A DNA stretch of 63,585 nt, the filler included, from Collodictyon triciliatum (lineage: Eukaryota), in NCBI GenBank assembly GCA_043381765.1. It is 6 parts of 6 records of this genome, joined end to end, with 100 filler letters (N's around TTAATTAATTAA, not from the genome) between each part and the next. Parts side by side here need not be neighbours in the genome. Positions count along the whole stretch, not along the records: positions 40,933 to 54,468 come from JBHJMP010001971.1; 5 more parts are not named here. One strand, given 5' to 3'. The notes beneath the pieces are model-generated. The model had not been told where the DNA came from. It was given only the letters and a program-made list of their open reading frames with translations, and ran no database searches. Below, in pieces: positions 5,064 through 54,568 of this stretch. The translations under genes were made by a program, and so were the position numbers. Positions within the stretch are counted from its first letter, which is position 1; every line of letters starts with the position of its first letter.

Positions 5064-5608
5064 GCAATATTTTCTGTTTTCCAGACTTGGAACTCCCCTT
5101 TTCCCTAATTCTGGGTTGGATCCAATCTGGATGATCTAATCAGCGGCGGATAAGAAGGCTTGCGGTGTGGCTTCCGCGCGTGTTGGCGCTTGATGCGAGG
5201 ACACCTTTTTCTTTTCTTTTCTTTCTTTCCCTCACCATTATACCGTGGTCTCAAAGTAGATTTCGCAGATGTTTGGAACAAAGAACGCCCGCGCTTCCTC
5301 GTCCGGATACAGCCCGCCAAATGGTTTTCTTTTTCCCTCTCAAGGATCACATACACTAACGATTTCCACCGCCCTGTGGGCTTCGCATTTGCGTGTGTTT
5401 TCATCGTCCTTCTTTCCTCTCTTTTTCTTGCTCCGTTGCATGGGCGGCCTATTCTGGCAAGCTTTCTTTTTCCAAGGAATCAGACAAACCATAGACCATC
5501 CCAACCTCTTGTATAATTTTTCTCTTTTCTTTTCTTTCCTTTATTTTTCTCTTGTATAATTTTTCTCTTTTCTTTTCTTTTCTTTTCTTTTCAATAACCA
5601 ATTGAAGT

Positions 5609-13409: not shown

Positions 13410-13737
13410 AAAAAAACAAAAAACAAATAACAAAAAACAAATAACAAATAACAAAAAACAAAAAACAAAAAACAAAAAACAAAAAACAAAAAACAAAAAA
13501 CAAAAAACAAAAAACAAAAAACAAAAAACAAAAAACAAAAAACAAAAANNNNNNNNNNNNNNNNNNNNNNNNNNNNNNNNNNNNNNNNNNNNTTAATTAA
13601 TTAANNNNNNNNNNNNNNNNNNNNNNNNNNNNNNNNNNNNNNNNNNNNTTTTTGTTTTTTGTTTTTTGTTTTTTGTTTTTTGTTTTTTGTTTTTTGTTTT
13701 TTGTTTTTTGTTTTTTGTTTTTTGTTTTTTTGTTTTT
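13410..13737. repeat. (AAAAAAC)n and (GTTTTTT)n arrays flanking an assembly gap
   Basis: Heptamer arrays in opposite orientation on each side of the N/linker block 13549-13648. Confidence 0.88.
13593..13604. other. Artificial contig-joining linker TTAATTAATTAA (also at 27236, 40877, 54513, 61071)
   Basis: Identical palindromic 12-mer with stops in all six frames, each centred in a 100-nt N block. Confidence 0.92.
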
Positions 13738-27191: not shown

Positions 27192-27298
27192 NNNNNNNNN
27201 NNNNNNNNNNNNNNNNNNNNNNNNNNNNNNNNNNNTTAATTAATTAANNNNNNNNNNNNNNNNNNNNNNNNNNNNNNNNNNNNNNNNNNNNTTTCTTT

Positions 27299-47400: not shown

Positions 47401-48888
47401 AAAGCCGAAAATTTTGAGAAACTAAAGCAATTATCACAAAGAGGGGAGAAAGGCGCATTCAATTTGTTGACAGAAAAAGCTGAAATAAAAAAGTTGGGAA
47501 AAATCCAACATCCCCAGGCCCTTTCTATCATCCCCGAATGTTATGAAAACGGCTGGGGCACTGAAAAGGACATGCAAAAAGCTATTCAATGGTATGGAAA
47601 AGCTGAAAACTTCAGGAAATTGAAGCAACTTGCACAACAAGGTACACAAGAAGCTTTCAAGGTTTTGAAGGATATGGGTGAAATGAAACTTTTTAACGGA
47701 AATTACATGCATATTCCGGCTATTTCTATTATTGCTGAGTGCTATGAGAATGGGTGGACTGTTGAAAAGGATATAATTCTGTCTCTCAAGTGGAGAATAT
47801 TTGGCTTCGAGGAACAATCCAATTTTGAAATACTCAAGCAAATGTGTCAACATGGAGAAAATAAATCATTTGATGTTCTGAAAGAACTGGCTGAAATGAA
47901 AACTAACGCCGGCAATTGGGATGAGAGATACACATATCCACAAGCTGCCCCGATTGTCGCTGAATGCTATGAGAATGCATGGGGTGTCGAGAAGAGCATA
48001 GAACAAGCAATGCATTGGCTTGGAAAGGCCGCAAATTTCGAAAAACTGAAGCTAATGTCACAAGGAGGCACAAAAGAAGCATTCGCAGTGTTAAAGGATG
48101 TAGCTGAAATCAAGCAAGACGCATGGAGCAGTGCATACAAATACCCAGAGGCCATTTCAATTGTTGCTGAGTGCTATGAAGATGGATGGGGCGTTGAAAA
48201 AGACATGGAGCAAGCCATATATTGGCTGGGAAAGGCTGAAAATTTTGAAAAGCTGAAGCAAATATCTCGGCAAGGGGCAAAGAAAGCATTCGAAGTTCTG
48301 AGAGAATGTGCTGAAACTAAAACAGAAGTTGGAAATGGGAACAAAGCATACAAATACCCACAGGCTGTTTCAATTGTTGCTGAATGTTATGAAGATGGAT
48401 GGGGCGTTGAAAAAGACATGGAGCAAGCCATATATTGGTTGGGAAATGCCGAAAACTTTGAAAAGCTGAAGCAAATATCTCAGCAAGGGACAAAGAAAGC
48501 ATTCGAAGTTCTGAGAGAATGTGCTGAAACTAAAACAGAAGTTGGAAAGTGGAACGAAGCATACAAGTACCCACAGGCTGTTCCAATTGTCGCTGATTGC
48601 TTTGAAAATGGATGGGGCGTTGAAAAAGACATGGAGCAAGCCATGGATTGGTTAGGAAAAGCTCAGAACTTTGAAAAGCTGAAGCAAATATCTCAGCAAG
48701 GGACAAAGAAAGCATTCGAAGTTCTGAGAGAATGTGCTGAAATTAAGACAAATGTTGGAAAGTGGAACGAAGCATACAAGTACCCACAGGCTGTTTCATT
48801 TGTCGCCGGATGCTATGAAAATGGATGGGGCGTTGAAAAGGACACCCAGAAAGCGGCTGAGTGGATACAAAAAGTGACCTCCACATAA
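41443..48888 (+). CDS. STAND/NACHT NTPase with pentapeptide repeats, WD40 repeats and C-terminal Sel1-like repeats (NLR/NWD-like); first in-frame ATG 41461, short upstream exons possible
   Basis: 2481-codon uninterrupted ORF. Walker A GDSGSGKS (43705-43728), Walker B IIFLDGYDEI, FFHKSLYEYFAA winged-helix motif, pentapeptide run (~45080-45260), 13 WD40 repeats (~45280-46995), tail GFSVMNKKLFLQEGA, 8 ECYENGWGVEKD..A..W Sel1-like units. Confidence 0.93.
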   Translation: MGHYPLMDESSVFNLRNDGVYEVRPACRGGGNASSRMARANTTAATRSPNAPVESTVDVLEILSKLNEAHQSAALNPTAGQNLPNVSFQLTQILASQLLMSPTKEEDIKLLERVVALHISAVEKQAAVQNQSLREQADIAERHASISEKQNESKQRLIQTLMDQVSRLPASEQNSRSIESLVQCICPQGIQSQTSIPIAQMQTTPEPFATHVPSPYTQTSVINQPKTPKGFETSQVAANTNLQTHNQSGLSRGLQSNDAQPSGGATSTTSAALKIEGPSKSIKSPSITGSHNPTNIQPSSILANTQGAPAFNDWECEPSEFIEIPTNASELAETIIEQRELQSSGGMEKKRALRIIKLFMKEPTAEDESLYELTALAPSGDRLISEKLITAVGDKMQSGMEKLDRLLNALNITLANTLKEDFDQTLLAKVLDILIERVGSLFASDEALCQKLLDSLISILNSLYVSGASGIPEEKYKAYRETFGQSWIEAKIETRGEEIESKMQIQYVQAKKSLFCELLKHIGDGQSPVVKNLKIAGKVGLGLFNAASAAFSFDVSSTLASLQEVASAVGEIDIKKNWFKLYQDFRIFLFINVDEARIFWNSQLSGKKDRVGETLAFLTIDTIYERFCHTNVGSERQKVYDLINYVTRHEKWLKSETTNRFVESRKKEMLQYYPKVHKLPTILFEKAGKDERTIQDIIENIREETIRNEEFNSRFNTYISGQAERIAEKGKVFDAQEYILNFVTSSKAKVLLILGDSGSGKSLLQQHIVRLLWEKFIFGKTFIPLYVALTSLEEPRENAIEELLLSETKNSFYIPDSDFRPMQIKELKKKPFIIFLDGYDEIEDNGASFYNSNKLNEWPNCKFVIGCRRQFLEKKSHYQSLFAPKINQIYSLDEIYLRPFESKQRLEYFNKFAEKNPVEGWEKGEIYETELKKIKELEELAVTPFMIFMAATTLPFLLKDRAVSKSRENSRMMRTDFLDKFSRSWFERERDKLESNVSLKQRMPENLTDLLWNKCKDISRSMINNGHIALDYERIEGKAKKNEYDEFFHPNPDHMIDGERTYSVFVLRCAPIKKSSATTYEFFHKSLYEYFAAEYIGDELNSVVVEDQESVQYSSVAKEVCASPEYANDIPKKSTSGMLPRSNFFDTVKTAMKIRVKTNALDRKLEPAILLNLSERVKKDSIYRRSLFLIIEESKTNLSKALAASNAITILNYADISFSGMDLRGIQIPNADMSQCVADGADFTGANLDGVLFYNACISDCVFDDANLKNVNFGRLPLLLGHTSYVSSVCSIRGPNGENWLASGSGDSTIRIWDVATGDDIRIFGGQADSVSQICYIEGPNGENWLASGGSKMICIWDIATGNTVKKVEGVGHVNFVCSIQGPNGEKLLAFGSGITIRIWDLATENQIKILEGHEYGVICGCGIQGPNGEIWFASGSHDRTIRIWDVAMGTQIKRINAGQIQSIRSIQGPNSENWLAFGGQDRKIHIWDLVTDTKVKAIEGHTSDVSCICNTRGPNGENWLVSGSSDKTIRIWDITSGFQVKIMEGHTSSVASVCNIQGPNGESCLGSGGFDSTIRIWDAISLNQIKTLECHTKDIIAVCSIKGPNGEDWLASGSNDTSIRIWDVATGHLIKVLEGHEFGAIFICGIKGPNGERWLVSAEYYRIVRFWDLDTGNLLHQQPKRYDNDIRGACCVQGPNGEAWFLFAGLDNILRVLDVATGNEIKKLEGHTEVIRRVCSIHGPKGEKWVASGGHDGKIIIWDLVTGDQIKKLDAKQQITDICYIRGPNGENLLAFVRNNETIRIWDFVSEKIVKMLEDDKKPVSKLYSIRGPNGELWLTSASEEKVVRIWDVASGFLIYNIHKSELTYDRNNHLIRKVKPDEIVAVFNSLGDAMNLIDTSRIMRVKTVRTIGPRTLQSENSRFKNTIGFSVMNKKLFLQEGAASFDKDFVDYCEDGRFTKFQAQKMAESYENGWNIEENLDKSIQWYGKAENFEKLKQLSQRGEKGAFNLLTEKAEIKKLGKIQHPQALSIIPECYENGWGTEKDMQKAIQWYGKAENFRKLKQLAQQGTQEAFKVLKDMGEMKLFNGNYMHIPAISIIAECYENGWTVEKDIILSLKWRIFGFEEQSNFEILKQMCQHGENKSFDVLKELAEMKTNAGNWDERYTYPQAAPIVAECYENAWGVEKSIEQAMHWLGKAANFEKLKLMSQGGTKEAFAVLKDVAEIKQDAWSSAYKYPEAISIVAECYEDGWGVEKDMEQAIYWLGKAENFEKLKQISRQGAKKAFEVLRECAETKTEVGNGNKAYKYPQAVSIVAECYEDGWGVEKDMEQAIYWLGNAENFEKLKQISQQGTKKAFEVLRECAETKTEVGKWNEAYKYPQAVPIVADCFENGWGVEKDMEQAMDWLGKAQNFEKLKQISQQGTKKAFEVLRECAEIKTNVGKWNEAYKYPQAVSFVAGCYENGWGVEKDTQKAAEWIQKVTST
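48135..48850 (+). repeat. 213-nt coding tandem repeat (71-aa Sel1-like unit), about 3.3 highly similar copies
   Basis: TACCCA unit anchors at 48142, 48355, 48568 and 48781, exactly 213 nt apart, with long identical stretches. Confidence 0.9.
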
Positions 48889-49582: not shown

Positions 49583-52500
49583 TCATGGGTCATCTCTTCC
49601 TGGTGCGTTGGATGCTACCGCTCGAACGGTTTTTTCCCTGGCCTTGGCAATCTAGCAAAGCATTACTTTTAGAGAGCATAAAAACTTTGCTTTAGGTTAT
49701 TTTTGTTCACTCCTAACCATGATGCTGTGGTCAATTTTCCATTCATAAATAATCCTGAAGATAGGAAACAAAACGCACCTCATGAACTTTTTTCGCTACG
49801 TCTGGATAAAGCTGCAGCAGAGGGTCAAGGTCTTTTTTTCGAAGCTTGAAACATTATGTTTGTAATGATGAAATAGGTTTTTTTTTGAAATAATTTACTT
49901 TTATGAGTATATGTAAAAGAGTATTTTAATATATCACATGCAAAATACCAAAATGGAATTGAATTGAAAAAAAGAAAAAGAAAAAAGAAAAAGAAAAAAG
50001 AAATGAAAAAAGAAATGAAAAAAGAAATGAAAAAAGAAAAGAAAAAGAAGGATGAAAATTGACCCACAATGTATAATTCACACGATTCAACACACCGCAC
50101 CGAAGCTGTTCGTGAAGTGTCAGTGAGCAGAGCTATTTCGCCTGAAGGATTTTTTGTTTTGTTTTTGTTTGTTACAATTGTGTCATAAGGATTCTGGATT
50201 AACATATGTATTTTAAAGAAAAAAAGGAGACAGTGAAATTCAATTCGATCAAGAAAGCTACCAAAATATGCACCCTCAAAGAGTTGCGCAACTACAGTTT
50301 GATTATCTGGGGCGATGATTTCAACTGTCCCTCTGTGTATGAAGTACATCTCATTCCCGACATCCCTGGGATTGGTTCAATTATTTTTTTTTTTTAATAG
50401 CTACAAATCGATAAAAGCACTCCATCGATTCAAACAGTTCTATATTCCTACATATTATTTATCTAACCCTTCCTGAAAGACGAAGTCTCCAAGTTCGTAC
50501 AATGCGGGGTATAGCTTCGTCGATAATTCTCTGATGAATCCATCACTAGCCTCCTTGAATAGATGAAGCTACGAACACGATGCATAAATTATCAGCTATA
50601 ATTGCCAAAAGAAAAAGACTCTTATGAAAGTAGAATCGATGATTTCTTCACGAGAAGTCGATATTGAAAATAGTAATTCACTGACCTTCTGCACCAAATC
50701 CTTTCGAAGATACAGAGCCACCTCCGTACGCAAATCCTTTGGCAAGCTGGCGAGAATGGATGATTCATCAACACCTATACAATAATTTTTTAAAATATTT
50801 ATCCTATTTACATGACAAGGCTATATTGTAATATGAATTTCATTCGAAAGTGCCAAACATGTAAAGAACACAGGTTGTTTTGACACCTGAAACGATTATT
50901 TTGCTGCAGGTAGTATTACTACTATTTTACCTCGGTTGACAAGCCAAAGTTTTTGATAATGCTTCTGAATCCTCTCTTTTGTTTCCAAGGGAAGTTGTCG
51001 GTACTGGTATTTAAAAAAATGAAAGGAAATGTTAGATTGGTCAACCTCATCGCACAATCTGAAACACAATTCATACAAACATTCAAATATTCATCGACCG
51101 ACACAAGCTTGTCGATGTAACGAGTTTGACTTTGCTGCAAGCTCTCTTTAAAAATAAATTAATCGTTAGAAAAATCAGTATTGATAATTACAATCTTACA
51201 TTCAATAGCACACTAACATCAAGAGATTTGGCATACCAACGCAAAGTTTTTTTTGAATAGAAGTGATGATAAGAATAGTCATATTGACGATAGGGTGAAA
51301 AAATAATAAGAAAAAAATAGCTGTAACGGCAAAATGTAAAAAGTATTGCATGAAGAAAGTATAGTATGAGAACTAGGTATTGGTGATCAAAACCTATAGC
51401 CGAAGTCATAGAGCCAACGAACGAGCCCATTACGAAGACTCCAGACAGAGCAACTAATATGACGAGCAAAAATTCTGCATCTGTCTCTGGGCGCACGAGA
51501 GTGCCAAAGCTACATATAGCCTTGGACGACCATGCGACTCCAAATAGATACTTACTGCCAGGAGACTATTATGAATCAACAGCTATCTTTAGAGACTCGA
51601 TGCAGAGAAGCTTTCCAACTTTGTGTCGGCAGTAGTGTCAGTTACCTTTGGGACAAGCTCTGGGCCGGGAATGAATCTGTTGTCAGAAAAATCCTATTAT
51701 GGGCAATTTTTAACGATCAATTATACATATCGATGCAAGAACTCAAAAAAAAAAATGAACCTGCATCCTAGCTATGAGGATGTATAGGCAACCAACAACA
51801 TGACTCAAGAAGATAAACTGGATGGTGAGAACATAGAGCCTTTGGAAGATTGATGTTGAATTCCAAATATTCAGCTATTGGTGAAATGAGATGAATTATT
51901 TCTTCGAATGAATTACAAAGTAAATGCGAAAAGAAAAGATAATTAAAATAAGTATTAACGTATTAACGTGAGAAATCAGACGGGTGGTTTAAAGCATCCT
52001 TACTTTATCAATTGAAAACAGTTTCACAACTTGGAATAGGCGCAGAGCCACAAGATATGTCGTCCAGTTGTGCTGCCCATAAAATAAAAAATATGGGATT
52101 GCTGCTAGAACATCTGCAACCAGCCATCCTTTCAGATATGCTTTTGCGATAAGAAATGCATCTGTGATATACTGCGAATGCTGTGATTAATATAGGAAAG
52201 GATTAATGGAATTATTCTTTTAAAATCTTTAAGGGAGAAACCTCATTATACTCTGTGCGAGCAAAACGGAAGTTAATCACAACATTAGCTGCGAAACAGG
52301 TTGTACAGAAAATGTCTAGCGCTATCCAAGTATTGTTTTGTTCCATCTAATTTTTTTTGGATAGAAAGAGAGTTGTTTCTATTTCCTTAAAAACAAACAA
52401 ACAAACAAACAAACAAAAAACAAATAAACAAATAAACAAACAAACAAACAAACAAAAAAAAAACAAACAAGCAAGCAAACAAACAAACAAAAAAAATAAC

Positions 52501-53278
52501 ATAGCCTTCTATGACAATGGTCAGTGTTTTAATAAAAAAAAATATCAAATTTTCCACCAGATATAATAAATGAGTTTCATTTTTTCTCTTCTTTTAAGAA
52601 AGAAAATGTGTTGATGCCGTACCATTTTATTCATTCCTAATGAAATCAGAAATGGGATGCTCCAAACAGTATAGACAACAGCAAGGTGGATGATGTAGTT
52701 CCACACACGAAAGAAGGAAGAATGAGGGTAAATCATTGTTTTTTCATCAATGGCTTCCCAAAGTTCCTTCTGAATTAAATTAAAAGGTGTATGATGTAAG
52801 TATTTCAGCTGTTCAATCCACTACTTTGGTCAATGAAAAGAGAAAATATTGGAAACACGACATGCTCGGCACAGTGCACCATACAATTAGGAGGAAAATA
52901 TCTTATATAAGGTAATTCTATTCCTGTAGGGCCGGGTGAAATGGATTGTCACAATCTCAATTAAGAAAGAACATGAATGCAACAACTCGTATATATTACT
53001 CAACCTTGAAAATTGCTCTCCATATATGATTCAACAATGAAGGACGCTCGGTATTTGCTTCTTGGGATGCCACGGTAGGGGCTTTGACAGGCGTTCTTGG
53101 CCTGAATCCATCTGCTTCTAACTACAATGAGAACATACACTATATGAGCGCAAATGATATAAATAATGCGAAAATGAATTCGGGAGCCCAACGTGATAAT
53201 ATTAGTTTGAGTAAATCATACGGGTTGAATACGACCATCCCGTCGCAGATGAAGAGCTTCACTGATTTGTCGCAACAT
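49583..53278 (-). CDS. Cyclic-nucleotide-binding-domain ion channel (CNG/HCN/KCNH superfamily), multi-exon
   Basis: S1 IYPHSSFFRVWNYIIHLAVVY; AKAYLKGWLVADVLAAIP; pore/S6 YLFGVAWSSKAICSFGTLVRPETDAEF; C-linker LPKDLRTEVALYL; CNBD EMYFIHRGTVEI...FGEIALLTDTSRTASV; ends ...GRDDP*. Confidence 0.88.
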
Positions 53279-53396: not shown

Positions 53397-53603
53397 AGGA
53401 GAAAAGAAAAAGACAGAAAAAAAGAAAAGAAAAGAANNNNNNNNNNNNNNNNAGAAAAGAAAAGAAAAGAAAAGAAAAGAAAAGAAAAGAAAAGAAAAGA
53501 AAAAGAAAAGAAAAAGAAAAGAAAAAGAAAAGAAAAAGAAAAGAGAAAAGTTAAGAAAAAAGAAAAAGAAAAAGAAAAGATAAAATAAAATAAAAAAGAA
53601 AAA
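53397..53603. repeat. (GAAAA)n-type microsatellite
   Basis: Degenerate GAAAA/GAAAAA array containing a short N run. Confidence 0.85.
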
Positions 53604-53865
53604 AGTCCTTTTAGCCACCGAACCATCTGCGTAGAAAGTGAAATCTGTTTGTATGCGTCATGTTGCCTGTTTATGAATTACTACATGGGGAAAACCCAGT
53701 CTTTAGATTGGTAAACCTGGTGCACCAGTATCCAAAGTCTCACCATTTTTTTCACAAAGGTTGTGTAGTGGCGAAGACTACCAGGAAAGACCCGACAGCC
53801 TGTTTTTTTTTAGGGAATGATGATTTTTTTTTGAAGGATTAAAAGAACTTTCTGAGTGTATCATT

Positions 53866-54468
53866 ACCGCTGTTAAACTCCCTTGTCAAGAATACACTTT
53901 GTTTGCTTTCTGGGCGATTGAATTCTTTAAATATGAGATATCTATACATATTTTTTTTTTGGATTTTCTTTCAGTGTTACATATTCCAGTTCTTTTTCGC
54001 AGTTACAACACATCTTGGAGGTTCTAAATTCATCTACACTCACTGTTTCAAAATGTTTGGGAAGTATTTTTCGTAATCCTCTTCCGATTGTTGGCGTAAA
54101 ATGTTTCATCTGAGATTTTCTGCTCCAGTCTCCATACGCCACTACAACATCATTGCCAAATGTCTTTTCGATTCGGTACATAAATAATTCTTCACTTCTT
54201 TTTTGTATTAGCATACTGTCTCCATATCATCTTTCGAAAAGTTACTTATTCATAAAATCTGGATAATTCTATCTGGCATCTTGATTTCATGGATACACAT
54301 TCTAGAAACTTTCCATTACCGACCATGCATGAATTATTTTTACTTAGTTCTGTCTCTGAAACGATTAAAGATACTCTTGATGTCTCAAACTGCTGATTCT
54401 CTTCAAAAGACATTTGCCCAAAAGAAAAAGCACTTTGTAAATCTGTTGCCATGTATATCCCTGAAGCA
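53866..54468 (-). pseudogene. Decayed Fanzor (eukaryotic TnpB/Cas12-related RuvC nuclease), C-terminal half; 5' part lost in gap
   Basis: Pieced translation ETELSKNNS..FYE*VTFRKMIWRQYANTK(fs)RSEELFMYRIEKTFGNDVVVAYGDWSRKSQMKHFTPTIGRGLRKILPKHFETVSVDEFRTSKMCCNC...(fs)MYRYLIFKEF...VFLTREFNS shows the Fanzor FRK..W, GDWS, DEFRTSK.C..C and (N/T)RD.N motifs, with a stop and frameshifts; no introns. Confidence 0.82.
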
Positions 54469-54568
54469 NNNNNNNNNNNNNNNNNNNNNNNNNNNNNNNN
54501 NNNNNNNNNNNNTTAATTAATTAANNNNNNNNNNNNNNNNNNNNNNNNNNNNNNNNNNNNNNNNNNNN

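What the first reader, a model, noticed from the sequence alone, without database searches (positions are those of the whole stretch)
53866..54468. Decayed Fanzor (RNA-guided TnpB-derived nuclease) embedded in a protist genome
Seen: an intronless minus-strand fragment with FRKMIWRQY, YGDWS..QMKHFTPT.G.GLR, VDEFRTSKMCCNC and a frameshifted YRYLI..F...VFLTREFNS. It has a TAA at 54246-54248 and two frameshifts in A-runs. Known: this motif order (RuvC-II Glu plus Zn-finger CxxC, then RuvC-III RD.N) is typical of Fanzor1-type proteins in eukaryotic transposons and giant viruses. Inference: RuvC-III D is now E and the second Cys pair reads F..F, so this copy is dead. Its presence implies a Fanzor transposon family, perhaps virus-derived, possibly with intact copies and an omegaRNA elsewhere in this genome. 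Similarity stops just after RuvC-III, so the omegaRNA may be lost here.
Basis: partly seen in the sequence, partly recalled or inferred. Interest (0 to 1): 0.78.

Follow-up and report, generated by a model that had tools for sequence, protein, structure and literature searches.

The report
Dead Fanzor1 transposon gene fragment
This is the broken tail end of a Fanzor1 RNA-guided nuclease gene, one worn-out copy of a repeated jumping-gene family in a poorly sampled protist, of a kind already described in giant viruses and their hosts.

Summary
Minus strand 54467 to 53755 encodes, in three frames, the last ~235 residues of a ~650-residue Fanzor1 nuclease. tblastn with an intact metagenomic relative gives joint E 4e-61, and the solved Parasitella Fanzor1 matches at E 2e-11. 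The copy is dead. It has also lost three cysteines and carries Glu at the RuvC-III Asp.

Contigs from two coded sequencing runs hold about 100 diverged copies each. At those sites they read Gln, Cys, Cys, Cys and Asp, so the defects are private to this copy. Its private changes look neutral: 31 of 37 are non-synonymous.

Similarity does not stop after RuvC-III. It runs to the natural stop at 53752-53754, and family similarity reaches about 53695. No guide-RNA scaffold, terminal repeat or transposase is detectable here. The gene is cut by a contig end, not by biology.

The nearest wider relatives are two-gene Tc1/mariner-type transposons (DDE transposase plus Fanzor1, with conserved inverted ends), one of them confirmed to lie in a giant-virus genome. 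Elements of this kind, and host-genome fragments of them, are already in print. It is an ordinary molecular fossil of low novelty.

The parts
54201..54467 (-). Piece A (frame -2): matches residues ~411-498 of intact relatives, the region between RuvC-I and RuvC-II. It begins at the contig end.
   Evidence: tblastn P0002 q411-499, 58% identity; translation.
54246..54248 (-). In-frame TAA, private to this copy. The other copies read CAA (Gln).
   Evidence: At 54248 all 12 contigs of X2 and all 11 of X4 carry the other letter; codon mapping.
54199..54204 (-). A6 run carrying the first +1 frameshift (frame -2 to -3).
   Evidence: One base fewer in 3 contigs of X2 and 7 of X4. Fragment P0049 reads through in frame. 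Whether it is real or a homopolymer error could not be checked.
53957..54199 (-). Piece B (frame -3): the RuvC-II region. It has Gly at the canonical Glu position (YGDWS), the alternative catalytic Glu (DEFRTS) and the first Cys pair of the zinc ribbon (CCNC), all kept.
   Evidence: tblastn 66% identity to P0002; PDB hits; weak Pfam PF07282 match, E 0.013; invariant columns of A1; PMC10530073 for the alternative Glu.
53951..53960 (-). A10 run at the second frameshift (frame -3 to -1).
   Evidence: P0051 reads through this site in frame.
53755..53955 (-). Piece C (frame -1): degenerate second Cys cluster (Y..F..F where siblings have C..C..C), RuvC-III motif with Arg-Glu in place of Arg-Asp, Asn-to-Asp at a 99%-conserved column, and the C-terminal tail. 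It contains a second in-frame TAA at 53839-53841.
   Evidence: tblastn q579-633; conserved-column table; other copies restore C, C, C, D and N.
53752..53754 (-). TGA at the position of the natural stop codon.
   Evidence: Sequence. The tail aligns to the last residues of P0002, P0045 and P0001.
53695..53751 (-). Non-coding tail of the repeated unit, where relatives carry the guide-RNA scaffold and right inverted end. Neither is recognisable here.
   Evidence: Contigs of X2 and X4 cover down to 53695/53699 and none covers 53640-53695. Negative searches.
54469..54568 (.). N44-TTAATTAATTAA-N44 linker: a contig boundary that cuts the gene.
   Evidence: 7, 5 and 1 contigs of X2, X4 and X3 run on beyond the end of the stretch.
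53437..53452 (.). 16-N gap inside an (AGAAA)n array. It separates the 1,016-bp piece holding the fragment from the rest of the contig, which carries the channel gene.
   Evidence: the same repeat unit lies on both sides.

Best explanation
The stretch is a pseudogene: the 3' third of a Fanzor1 gene. Fanzor1 is the eukaryotic and viral TnpB-like, guide-RNA-directed RuvC DNA nuclease.

It is one old copy of a multi-copy, diverged transposon family in this protist or its close kin. The founding element encoded an intact nuclease: alternative RuvC-II Glu, the second Cys cluster (three Cys) and the RuvC-III Asp; the first Cys pair is read only from this copy and from protein fragments P0046 and P0051. 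By homology with its nearest wider relatives, that element was probably a Tc1/mariner/IS630-type cut-and-paste transposon with a divergent DDE transposase, ~30-nt inverted ends and a short structured guide RNA between the stop codon and the right end.

After insertion this copy drifted neutrally. It picked up two nonsense codons, two frameshifts and hits at catalytic and zinc-binding residues. It can no longer make a nuclease.

Shown: homology, breakage, the private nature of the defects, and the existence of many other copies. Inferred: the transposon type, the former guide RNA, and any link with giant viruses.
For: 1. Homology. Joint E 4e-61 to the intact relative P0002. The 94-aa piece hits solved Fanzor1 9cf0 at 2.1e-11. 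P0002 hits the Fanzor1 chains 9cer, 9cf0 and 8gkh at 2e-28 to 4e-23 over N- and C-terminal parts.

2. Breakage. Two in-frame TAA codons and two frame changes. The host reads stops normally: a 2,506-codon ORF on the same contig is open under the standard code.

3. Private defects. At the 37 coding sites listed among the 40 best supported of 190 differences, all or nearly all of the contig depth in runs X2 and X4 carries the other letter.
- These restore Gln for the first TAA, Asp at RuvC-III, three Cys, and Asn at a 99%-conserved column.
- 31 of the 37 are non-synonymous. About 80% is expected without constraint (p 0.68) and about 45% at omega 0.2 (p 1e-6).

4. A family exists.
- 92 contigs (X2) and 115 contigs (X4) lie on the stretch. 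Their identity classes (99+ / 95-99 / 90-95 / under 90) are 10/19/24/39 and 9/22/41/43.
- Four NCBI fragments (64-83% identity over 58-81 aligned residues for three of them) are themselves frame-broken. One of them, P0051, keeps the Cys cluster and RD.

5. Earlier selection. The window agrees with P0002 at 25 of 32 conserved columns against 81 of 142 variable ones (Fisher p 0.029). Intact relatives show the same pattern, 26-27 of 32. Most of its divergence therefore predates inactivation.

6. Relatives.
- In a 75-row tree the fragment joins P0001 and P0002 (SH-aLRT 100). The next clade (98) holds IMG/VR contigs L001 and L002.
- L002 carries VLTF3 (1.4e-51) and a giant-virus major capsid gene beside its Fanzor.
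- 123 of 159 fetched loci have closed ORFs of 560 aa or more.
- 73 of 159 have a DDE_3-type transposase nearby.
- 85 of 129 examined have inverted ends of at least 26 nt at 92% or better.
- A hairpin between the stop codon and the right end covaries at 4 of 4 pairs.
Against: - No read from the source assembly was available. The two A-run frameshifts may be homopolymer errors.
- Nothing transposon-like other than the gene survives in the window. There is no transposase (best tblastn E 0.69), no inverted end and no guide-RNA scaffold. 'Mariner-type' therefore rests on relatives that are only 40-47% identical.
- The closest intact relatives (P0001, P0002) come from unnamed metagenome contigs of unknown organism.
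- Runs X2 and X4 are coded organisms. At most of the listed sites none of their contigs shows the window's own letter, so they may be relatives and not the source species. Contigs also drop rare variants.
- The long terminal branch (0.96) mixes unsampled divergence with decay.
- The link to the neighbouring host gene crosses a 16-N gap.
Confidence: 0.9

Rival explanations
1. The fragment is a leftover of an integrated giant-virus genome segment (an endogenous viral element). It would have been carried in by the virus and would not have spread as a transposon in the host genome.
For: The wider clade is rich in giant-virus contigs. 140 of 260 candidate stretches in the viral collection encode relatives, and L002 has a capsid gene and VLTF3 next to its Fanzor. 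A preprint reports Fanzor1 plus Tc1/mariner elements in an integrated giant virus of Chlamydomonas, and a host-chromosome Fanzor fragment 80% identical to one of them (10.1101/2024.09.03.611062, passages).
Against: About 100 diverged contigs per run, with a broad identity spectrum, point to spread and ageing as a repeat family. The other genes examined on the same contig look cellular. The cNMP-binding coding sequence is interrupted on a reading of its translation (not tested), and the large ORF matches only WD40 and Sel1 families in the 25 of 40 Pfam matches shown. No viral hallmark appeared among the eight window ORFs scanned. This was not a systematic scan.
Confidence: 0.12
2. The gene is intact and functional. 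The frameshifts would be homopolymer sequencing errors, and TAA would be read as an amino acid or read through.
For: Both frameshifts are +1 in A-runs. Both internal stops are TAA while the terminal stop is TGA. Other copies read CAA (Gln) at the first TAA.
Against: A 2,506-codon ORF on the same contig has no TAA, TAG or TGA, so TAA is not a frequent sense codon here. The only tRNA found is an ordinary tRNA-Gln(TTG). The copy also carries private replacements of three Cys, the RuvC-III Asp and a 99%-conserved Asn, and its private changes are 84% non-synonymous.
Confidence: 0.02
3. The 1-kb piece holding the fragment is wrongly joined or is a contaminant, and is not physically next to the channel gene.
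For: The piece 53453-54468 is bounded by a 16-N gap and a contig end. The window itself looks like separate contigs strung together by linkers, with piece lengths 13,548, 13,543, 13,541 and 13,536. Near-identical short contigs occur in a freshwater and a lake metagenome.
Against: The same (AGAAA)n repeat lies on both sides of the 16-N gap, as expected for a gap inside a microsatellite. GC content is like that of the neighbouring sequence. A repeat family with about 100 contigs in two organism-labelled runs is not a stray contaminant.
Confidence: 0.1

Closest known systems
Fanzor1 RNA-guided nucleases (solved: Spizellomyces SpuFz1 8gkh, Guillardia GtFz1 9cer, Parasitella PpFz1 9cf0)
   Same: The RuvC-II to zinc-ribbon to RuvC-III order is the same. 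There is Gly in place of the canonical RuvC-II Glu, with a downstream alternative Glu in a D-E-[FY]-x-T-S context. Sequence matches are E 2.1e-11 for the fragment and 2e-28 to 4e-23 for its intact relative (PMC10530073 and PMC11423790, passages).
   Different: This copy is a truncated pseudogene with Glu at the third catalytic position and a lost Cys cluster. Its intact relatives are only distantly like the three solved proteins and much closer to giant-virus-borne copies (40-47% identity to the window fragment; E 2e-153 to the intact relative P0002).
Tc1/mariner-type transposons carrying Fanzor1 in giant viruses and their hosts (PGv-1 and relatives in PMC3627910; Fanzor families A-C of the Chlamydomonas endogenous giant virus in 10.1101/2024.09.03.611062)
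   Same: The nearest wider clade has this architecture. A divergent DDE_3 transposase sits beside Fanzor1 between ~30-nt inverted ends. Each right end examined finishes in GGTG, followed by TA in 21 of 22 right ends. A host-genome fragment of such an element has also been reported.
   Different: In the window only the gene's tail survives. No transposase, inverted end or TA duplication can be shown, so membership rests on phylogeny alone. Here the family is multi-copy and old in a cellular genome.
Prokaryotic TnpB of IS200/IS605 and IS607 (OMEGA systems)
   Same: It has the same RuvC plus zinc-ribbon core and the same logic of a guide RNA encoded at the transposon's right end (PMC10432273, passages). 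There is a weak Pfam match to the Cas12f1-like TNB domain, E 0.013.
   Different: No NCBIfam or Pfam TnpB model reaches its cut-off. The relatives are ~650 aa with long N-terminal extensions, occur in eukaryotic viruses, and pair with a DDE transposase and not with TnpA.

Membership tests
Fanzor1 | Significant sequence similarity to established Fanzor1 proteins across the RuvC/TNB region | tested here: met
   The fragment hits 9cf0 at E 2.1e-11, 9cer at 1.8e-3 and 8gkh at 2.5e-3. The intact relative P0002 hits the same three at 2e-28 to 4e-23.
Fanzor1 | Motif D-X(125,275)-[TS]-[TS]-X-X-[C4 zinc finger]-X(5,50)-RD (PMC3627910 abstract) | tested here: not met
   In this copy the RuvC-I Asp lies beyond the contig end. 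T-S and the first C-x-x-C are present. The second Cys pair is lost, and RD reads RE. In the family the second Cys cluster and RD are present: other copies and P0051 carry them. The failure is decay and not non-membership.
Fanzor1 | Rearranged RuvC-II: inert residue at the canonical Glu and a conserved alternative Glu downstream (PMC10530073) | tested here: met
   YGDWS is followed 33 residues later by DEFRTS. Both sit in invariant columns of the 13-sequence alignment A1.
Fanzor1 | Cognate guide (omega) RNA encoded at the 3' end of the element | tested here: inconclusive
   Relatives have a conserved block and a covarying hairpin, 4 of 4 pairs. In the window nhmmer finds nothing. Local alignment scores 19 against a shuffle mean of 20.9, with 430 of 500 shuffles at least as high. 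The fold z-score is -0.63 and Rfam has no hit. The comparators are only 40-47% identical in protein.
Fanzor1 | RNA-guided DNA cleavage activity | not testable with these tools
   This needs biochemistry. The ORF here is broken.
Tc1/mariner-type Fanzor1 transposon (PGv-1-like) | Adjacent DDE (Tc1/mariner/IS630-type) transposase | tested here: not met
   The best tblastn E in the window is 0.69, with four transposase queries from L001, L080 and L002. The region where it would lie is beyond the contig end. 73 of 159 related loci have one.
Tc1/mariner-type Fanzor1 transposon (PGv-1-like) | Terminal inverted repeats with TA target-site duplication | tested here: not met
   nhmmer with 45 or with 22 right-end sequences finds no hit near the fragment. 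The best matrix score, at 53706-53669, is in the 0.84% tail of the window, which is chance for 348 positions.
Tc1/mariner-type Fanzor1 transposon (PGv-1-like) | Phylogenetic placement among Fanzor1 genes of such elements | tested here: met
   A 13-row clade with SH-aLRT 98 holds the fragment together with L001, L002 and L080. All three have the transposase and the inverted ends. This was a quick search with the LG+G4 model, and the fragment sits on a long branch.

The most novel reading that the evidence does not exclude
This undersampled, probably freshwater protist may harbour a large Fanzor1 family that still has intact, guide-RNA-bearing master copies. It may exchange them with the giant viruses that infect it. 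The window copy would then be one fossil of a live host-virus transposon traffic and a pointer to new compact nucleases.
Probability: 0.25. Interest if true: 0.45.

Novelty: new member of a known kind. Interest (0 to 1): 0.2.

Why it matters
By itself it matters little. Fanzor1 genes and their remnants number in the thousands across eukaryotes and giant viruses (3,655 unique sequences in PMC10530073). Fragments of giant-virus mariner-Fanzor elements in host chromosomes are already reported.

Its modest value is as a marker. It shows that a deep-branching protist, whose GAF-phosphodiesterase finds nothing closer than 35% identity among 5.8 billion proteins, carries an old multi-copy Fanzor1 family. 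That family is sister to environmental copies and related to giant-virus copies. This adds one more data point for virus-host sharing of RNA-guided nuclease transposons, and a place to look for intact members.

Tried and rejected
- Own genome: none is held, so other copies in the source assembly could not be searched.
- Sequencing-run search: the best share of words was 0.13, and no RNA holder was listed. Runs X2 and X4 are only guessed to be RNA, so nothing is said about expression.
- Single-protein scan of the viral collection with P0002: no relative among 36 pattern matches. An alignment query then worked.
- Pfam and NCBIfam on the pieces: only sub-threshold hits. PF26935, precomputed for relatives, is not in the local Pfam copy and gave no hit at E up to 0.01. 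Its name is unknown to me.
- Transposase, inverted end and guide-RNA scaffold in the window: all negative. By eye I saw short resemblances in the tail, at 53704-53678 and around 53770-53745. I rejected them as non-significant.
- A motif resembling an inverted end in loose ends of contigs at 53826: on reading, it is the antisense of conserved codons in less decayed copies and not a transposon end. No call was made for this.
- Alternative genetic code (TAA as sense): rejected.
- Introns as an explanation for the stops or shifts: rejected, because homology is continuous across each break.
- Host identity: not obtained. The best relative of a host gene is an unnamed transcriptome protein, and Rfam found only a tRNA.
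- Earlier notes of this scan: none for this genome or sequence.
- Supplementary tables of the cited papers were not opened. They may list this family or this organism.

Full report
**What is in the sequence**

On the minus strand, from the contig end at 54468 downwards, three reading frames together spell the C-terminal part of one protein.
- Frame -2 covers 54467-54201, frame -3 covers 54199-53957, and frame -1 covers 53955-53755.
- The frame changes fall in an A6 run (54199-54204) and at an A10 run (53951-53960).
- There are in-frame TAA codons at 54246-54248 and at 53839-53841. The frame closes with TGA at 53752-53754.
- The upper boundary is not biological. Positions 54469-54568 are an N44-TTAATTAATTAA-N44 linker.

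**It is a Fanzor1 tail, well above chance**
- The 94-aa frame -3 ORF alone matches solved Fanzor1 chains: Parasitella 9cf0 at E 2.1e-11, Guillardia 9cer at 1.8e-3 and Spizellomyces 8gkh at 2.5e-3.
- A search of 5.8 billion proteins for longer relatives gave 21 hits at E up to 0.001 among 63 candidates. The best were P0001 (223 aa) and P0002 (648 aa), at 66-67% identity.
- tblastn of P0002 against the window gives three collinear pieces covering its residues 411-633, with joint E 4e-61. Nothing else in the window scores below E 7.
- P0002 in turn matches the three solved Fanzor1 proteins over both its N-terminal and RuvC parts, at 2e-28 to 4e-23.
- Pfam and NCBIfam give only sub-threshold hits: PF07282 at E 0.013.
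- The fragment keeps the features described for Fanzor nucleases in PMC10530073 (passages). There is Gly at the canonical RuvC-II position (YGDWS) and a conserved alternative Glu 33 residues downstream (DEFRTS). Both lie in invariant columns of a 13-sequence alignment of relatives.

**It is dead, and the damage is private to this copy**

The host reads stop codons normally. A 2,506-codon ORF on the same contig is open under the standard code.

The strongest evidence came from laying contigs of four coded public runs on 53640-54468 at 80% likeness or better.
- Run X2 (organism A) gave 92 contigs and run X4 (organism B) gave 115. Their identity classes (99+, 95-99, 90-95, under 90) were 10/19/24/39 and 9/22/41/43.
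- The table lists the 40 best-supported of 190 differing positions. At these, all or nearly all of the contig depth disagrees with the window.
- Mapped onto codons, the other copies read:
  - CAA (Gln) where the window has the first TAA;
  - GAC (Asp) where it has GAG (Glu) in RuvC-III;
  - TGT, TGT and TGC (Cys) where it has Tyr, Phe and Phe;
  - Asn where it has Asp at a column that is 99% conserved in 142 relatives.
- Of the 37 listed coding differences, 31 are non-synonymous. That fits the 80% expected for unconstrained change (p 0.68) and not the roughly 45% expected at omega 0.2 (p 1e-6).

A caveat applies to D-to-E alone. A natural Fanzor1 has Asn at this position, and SpuFz1 D606N is active (PMC11423790, passages). 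The verdict therefore rests on the stops and on the pattern as a whole. The two A-run shifts could still be homopolymer errors. No reads of the source assembly were available.

**It was a working lineage before that**
- The window agrees with P0002 at 25 of 32 columns that are at least 80% conserved, against 81 of 142 variable columns (Fisher p 0.029).
- Intact relatives at similar distance score almost the same, 26-27 of 32.
- Most of the 41% protein divergence from P0002 therefore accumulated under selection in an unsampled lineage. Decay came later.
- The long terminal branch in the tree (0.96, against 0.04-0.06 for P0001 and P0002) mixes both effects.

**A family exists**
- Besides the contig swarm in X2 and X4, a search for proteins of similar length found four fragments from NCBI contigs of 518-582 nt. 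P0046, P0049 and P0050 are 74%, 83% and 64% identical to the window's main frame over 81, 59 and 58 aligned residues. P0051 matches over 118 columns, partly in a shifted frame, so its 45% figure is not a like-for-like identity.
- Two of them begin in the same wrong frame as the window's out-of-frame reading and then switch frames. They are separately broken copies.
- P0051 keeps the Cys cluster and the RD motif.
- Whether these records come from the same organism as the window is unknown.
- One 249-nt contig of a freshwater metagenome (95-99% alike) and one 151-nt contig of a lake metagenome (1 difference in 118 nt) also match. The lake contig runs 33 nt beyond 54468.
- 7, 5 and 1 contigs of X2, X4 and X3 run past the end of the stretch. 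The gene therefore continues where the assembly stops.

**Extent and 3' end**
- Protein similarity continues about 50 codons past RuvC-III, to 53791 by tblastn. The last residues align down to the TGA at 53752-53754.
- Contigs of X2 and X4 cover down to 53695 and 53699, and none covers 53640-53695. I read this as the 3' edge of the repeated unit, 53-57 nt after the stop.

In relatives this interval holds the guide-RNA scaffold and the right inverted end.
- I found inverted ends of at least 26 nt at 92% or better in 85 of 129 loci examined.
- They finish in GGTG followed by TA in 21 of 22 right ends listed.
- Their outer ends lie a median 97 nt after the stop, with a range of -32 to 244.
- In front of the right end there is a conserved block and a hairpin that covaries at 4 of 4 pairs.

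None of this is detectable in the window.
- nhmmer with end models and with a scaffold model finds nothing near the fragment.
- The best local alignment to 15 relatives scores 19, against a shuffle mean of 20.9. 430 of 500 shuffles score at least as high.
- The tail folds no better than shuffles, z -0.63.
- Rfam has no hit above threshold.
- The comparators are only 40-47% identical in protein, so this absence is uninformative.

**Relatives and likely element type**
- Scans with the 13-sequence alignment found relatives in 140 of 260 candidate stretches of the viral collection (79 loci kept).
- 123 of the 159 loci have closed ORFs of 560 aa or more.
- In a 75-row tree the fragment joins P0001 and P0002 with SH-aLRT 100. 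This tree used a quick search with LG+G4. The rows were the 60 most similar plus every sixth of the remaining aligned rows, out of 145 distinct proteins, and loci proteins under 450 aa were dropped.
- The next clade (SH-aLRT 98, 13 rows) holds L001, L002, L080, L081 and P0003-P0006.
- L002 is a genuine giant-virus contig. VLTF3 (1.4e-51) and a major capsid gene flank its Fanzor.
- L001, L080 and L002 each have a divergent DDE_3 transposase immediately upstream. 73 of 159 loci have such a gene in their flanks.
- The window has none. The best E is 0.69, and the place where it would lie is beyond the contig end.

**Comparison with what is known**
- PMC3627910 (passages) described Fanzor1 in Mariner elements of giant viruses with TA duplications, and suggested that viruses spread Fanzor among eukaryotes.
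- PMC10432273 (passages) lists Fanzor1 in fungi, protists, arthropods, plants and giant viruses.
- PMC10530073 (passages) counts 3,655 unique Fanzors.
- Preprint 10.1101/2024.09.03.611062 (passages) reports Fanzor1 plus Tc1/mariner elements in an integrated giant virus of Chlamydomonas, including Fanzor-only and degraded forms. It also reports a Fanzor fragment on a host chromosome 80% identical to a viral copy.
- Earlier notes of this scan on other genomes reach the same filing.
- The present case is therefore a new member of a known kind.

**Caveats on context**
- The window appears to be separate contigs joined by linkers. The piece lengths are 13,548, 13,543, 13,541, 13,536 and 6,458, plus a cut last piece. 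Genes across a linker, such as the LRR gene at 56 kb, need not be neighbours.
- Within its own contig the fragment is separated from the cNMP-binding channel gene by a 16-N gap inside one (AGAAA)n array. The linkage is only at scaffold level.
- The host could not be named. Its GAF-phosphodiesterase finds nothing closer than 35% identity.

**Verdict**

This is an ordinary decayed member of a known transposon-borne nuclease family. The only notable point is that it marks an old multi-copy Fanzor1 family in a poorly sampled protist.

Noticed in passing
window 13549-13648, 27192-27291, 40833-40932, 54469-54568, 61027-61126: Five identical N44-TTAATTAATTAA-N44 linkers join pieces of 13,548, 13,543, 13,541, 13,536 and 6,458 nt. 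Most pieces end in microsatellites or homopolymers. The near-equal lengths suggest contigs listed by size and strung together, so order and adjacency across linkers are not evidence of synteny.
   Followed up: partly
window 41368-48888 (+): An uninterrupted 2,506-codon ORF with many WD40 repeats and Sel1 repeats, and a P-loop-like GDSGSGKS motif seen in the translation. It stands out as intronless in a contig whose other gene appears to have introns.
   Followed up: partly
window 34587-38262 (+): A GAF-domain plus PDEase_I phosphodiesterase gene. Its best relative among 5.8 billion proteins is only 35% identical and is an unnamed transcriptome protein. This indicates a very poorly sampled eukaryotic lineage.
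   Followed up: partly
window 49825-52820 (-): A gene with a cyclic-nucleotide-binding domain split by an apparent intron. It lies downstream of the Fanzor fragment on the same strand. Whether the fragment lies in its promoter or 5' UTR is unknown.
   Followed up: no
window 39665-40660 (-): A 331-codon ORF dominated by a long poly-Gln / (Q)nH(Q)nIT repeat tract.
   Followed up: no
L001:7814-7917, L080:7844-7946, L002:7798-7897 and 12 further loci (alignment A3): In giant-virus and metagenome relatives, the ~100 nt from the last codons of Fanzor1 to the right inverted end hold a conserved single-stranded block and a 4-bp hairpin with compensatory changes at all four pairs. This is probably the guide-RNA scaffold. 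By eye, a second helix pairs the start of the inverted end with an upstream segment.
   Followed up: partly
L002:5156-7898: In this capsid-gene-bearing giant-virus contig the left inverted end lies beside a short DDE_3 remnant (ORF 5130-5552), and a separate 305-aa ORF lies outside the element. This looks like a deletion derivative that kept Fanzor1 but not a whole transposase.
   Followed up: no
L080:155-1876 and L080:4110-4619: The same 10-kb metagenome contig holds a second, different TnpB/Fanzor-like ORF (573 aa, TNB domain at E 2.2e-9). It also holds an RNase H / RVT_3-like ORF next to the mariner-Fanzor1 element.
   Followed up: no
window 53799-54066: Some contigs of runs X2 and X4 skip 190-255 nt inside the gene (joints 53799>54048, 53810>54001, 53810>54066), with a few other letters in between. 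These are internally deleted members of the family.
   Followed up: no
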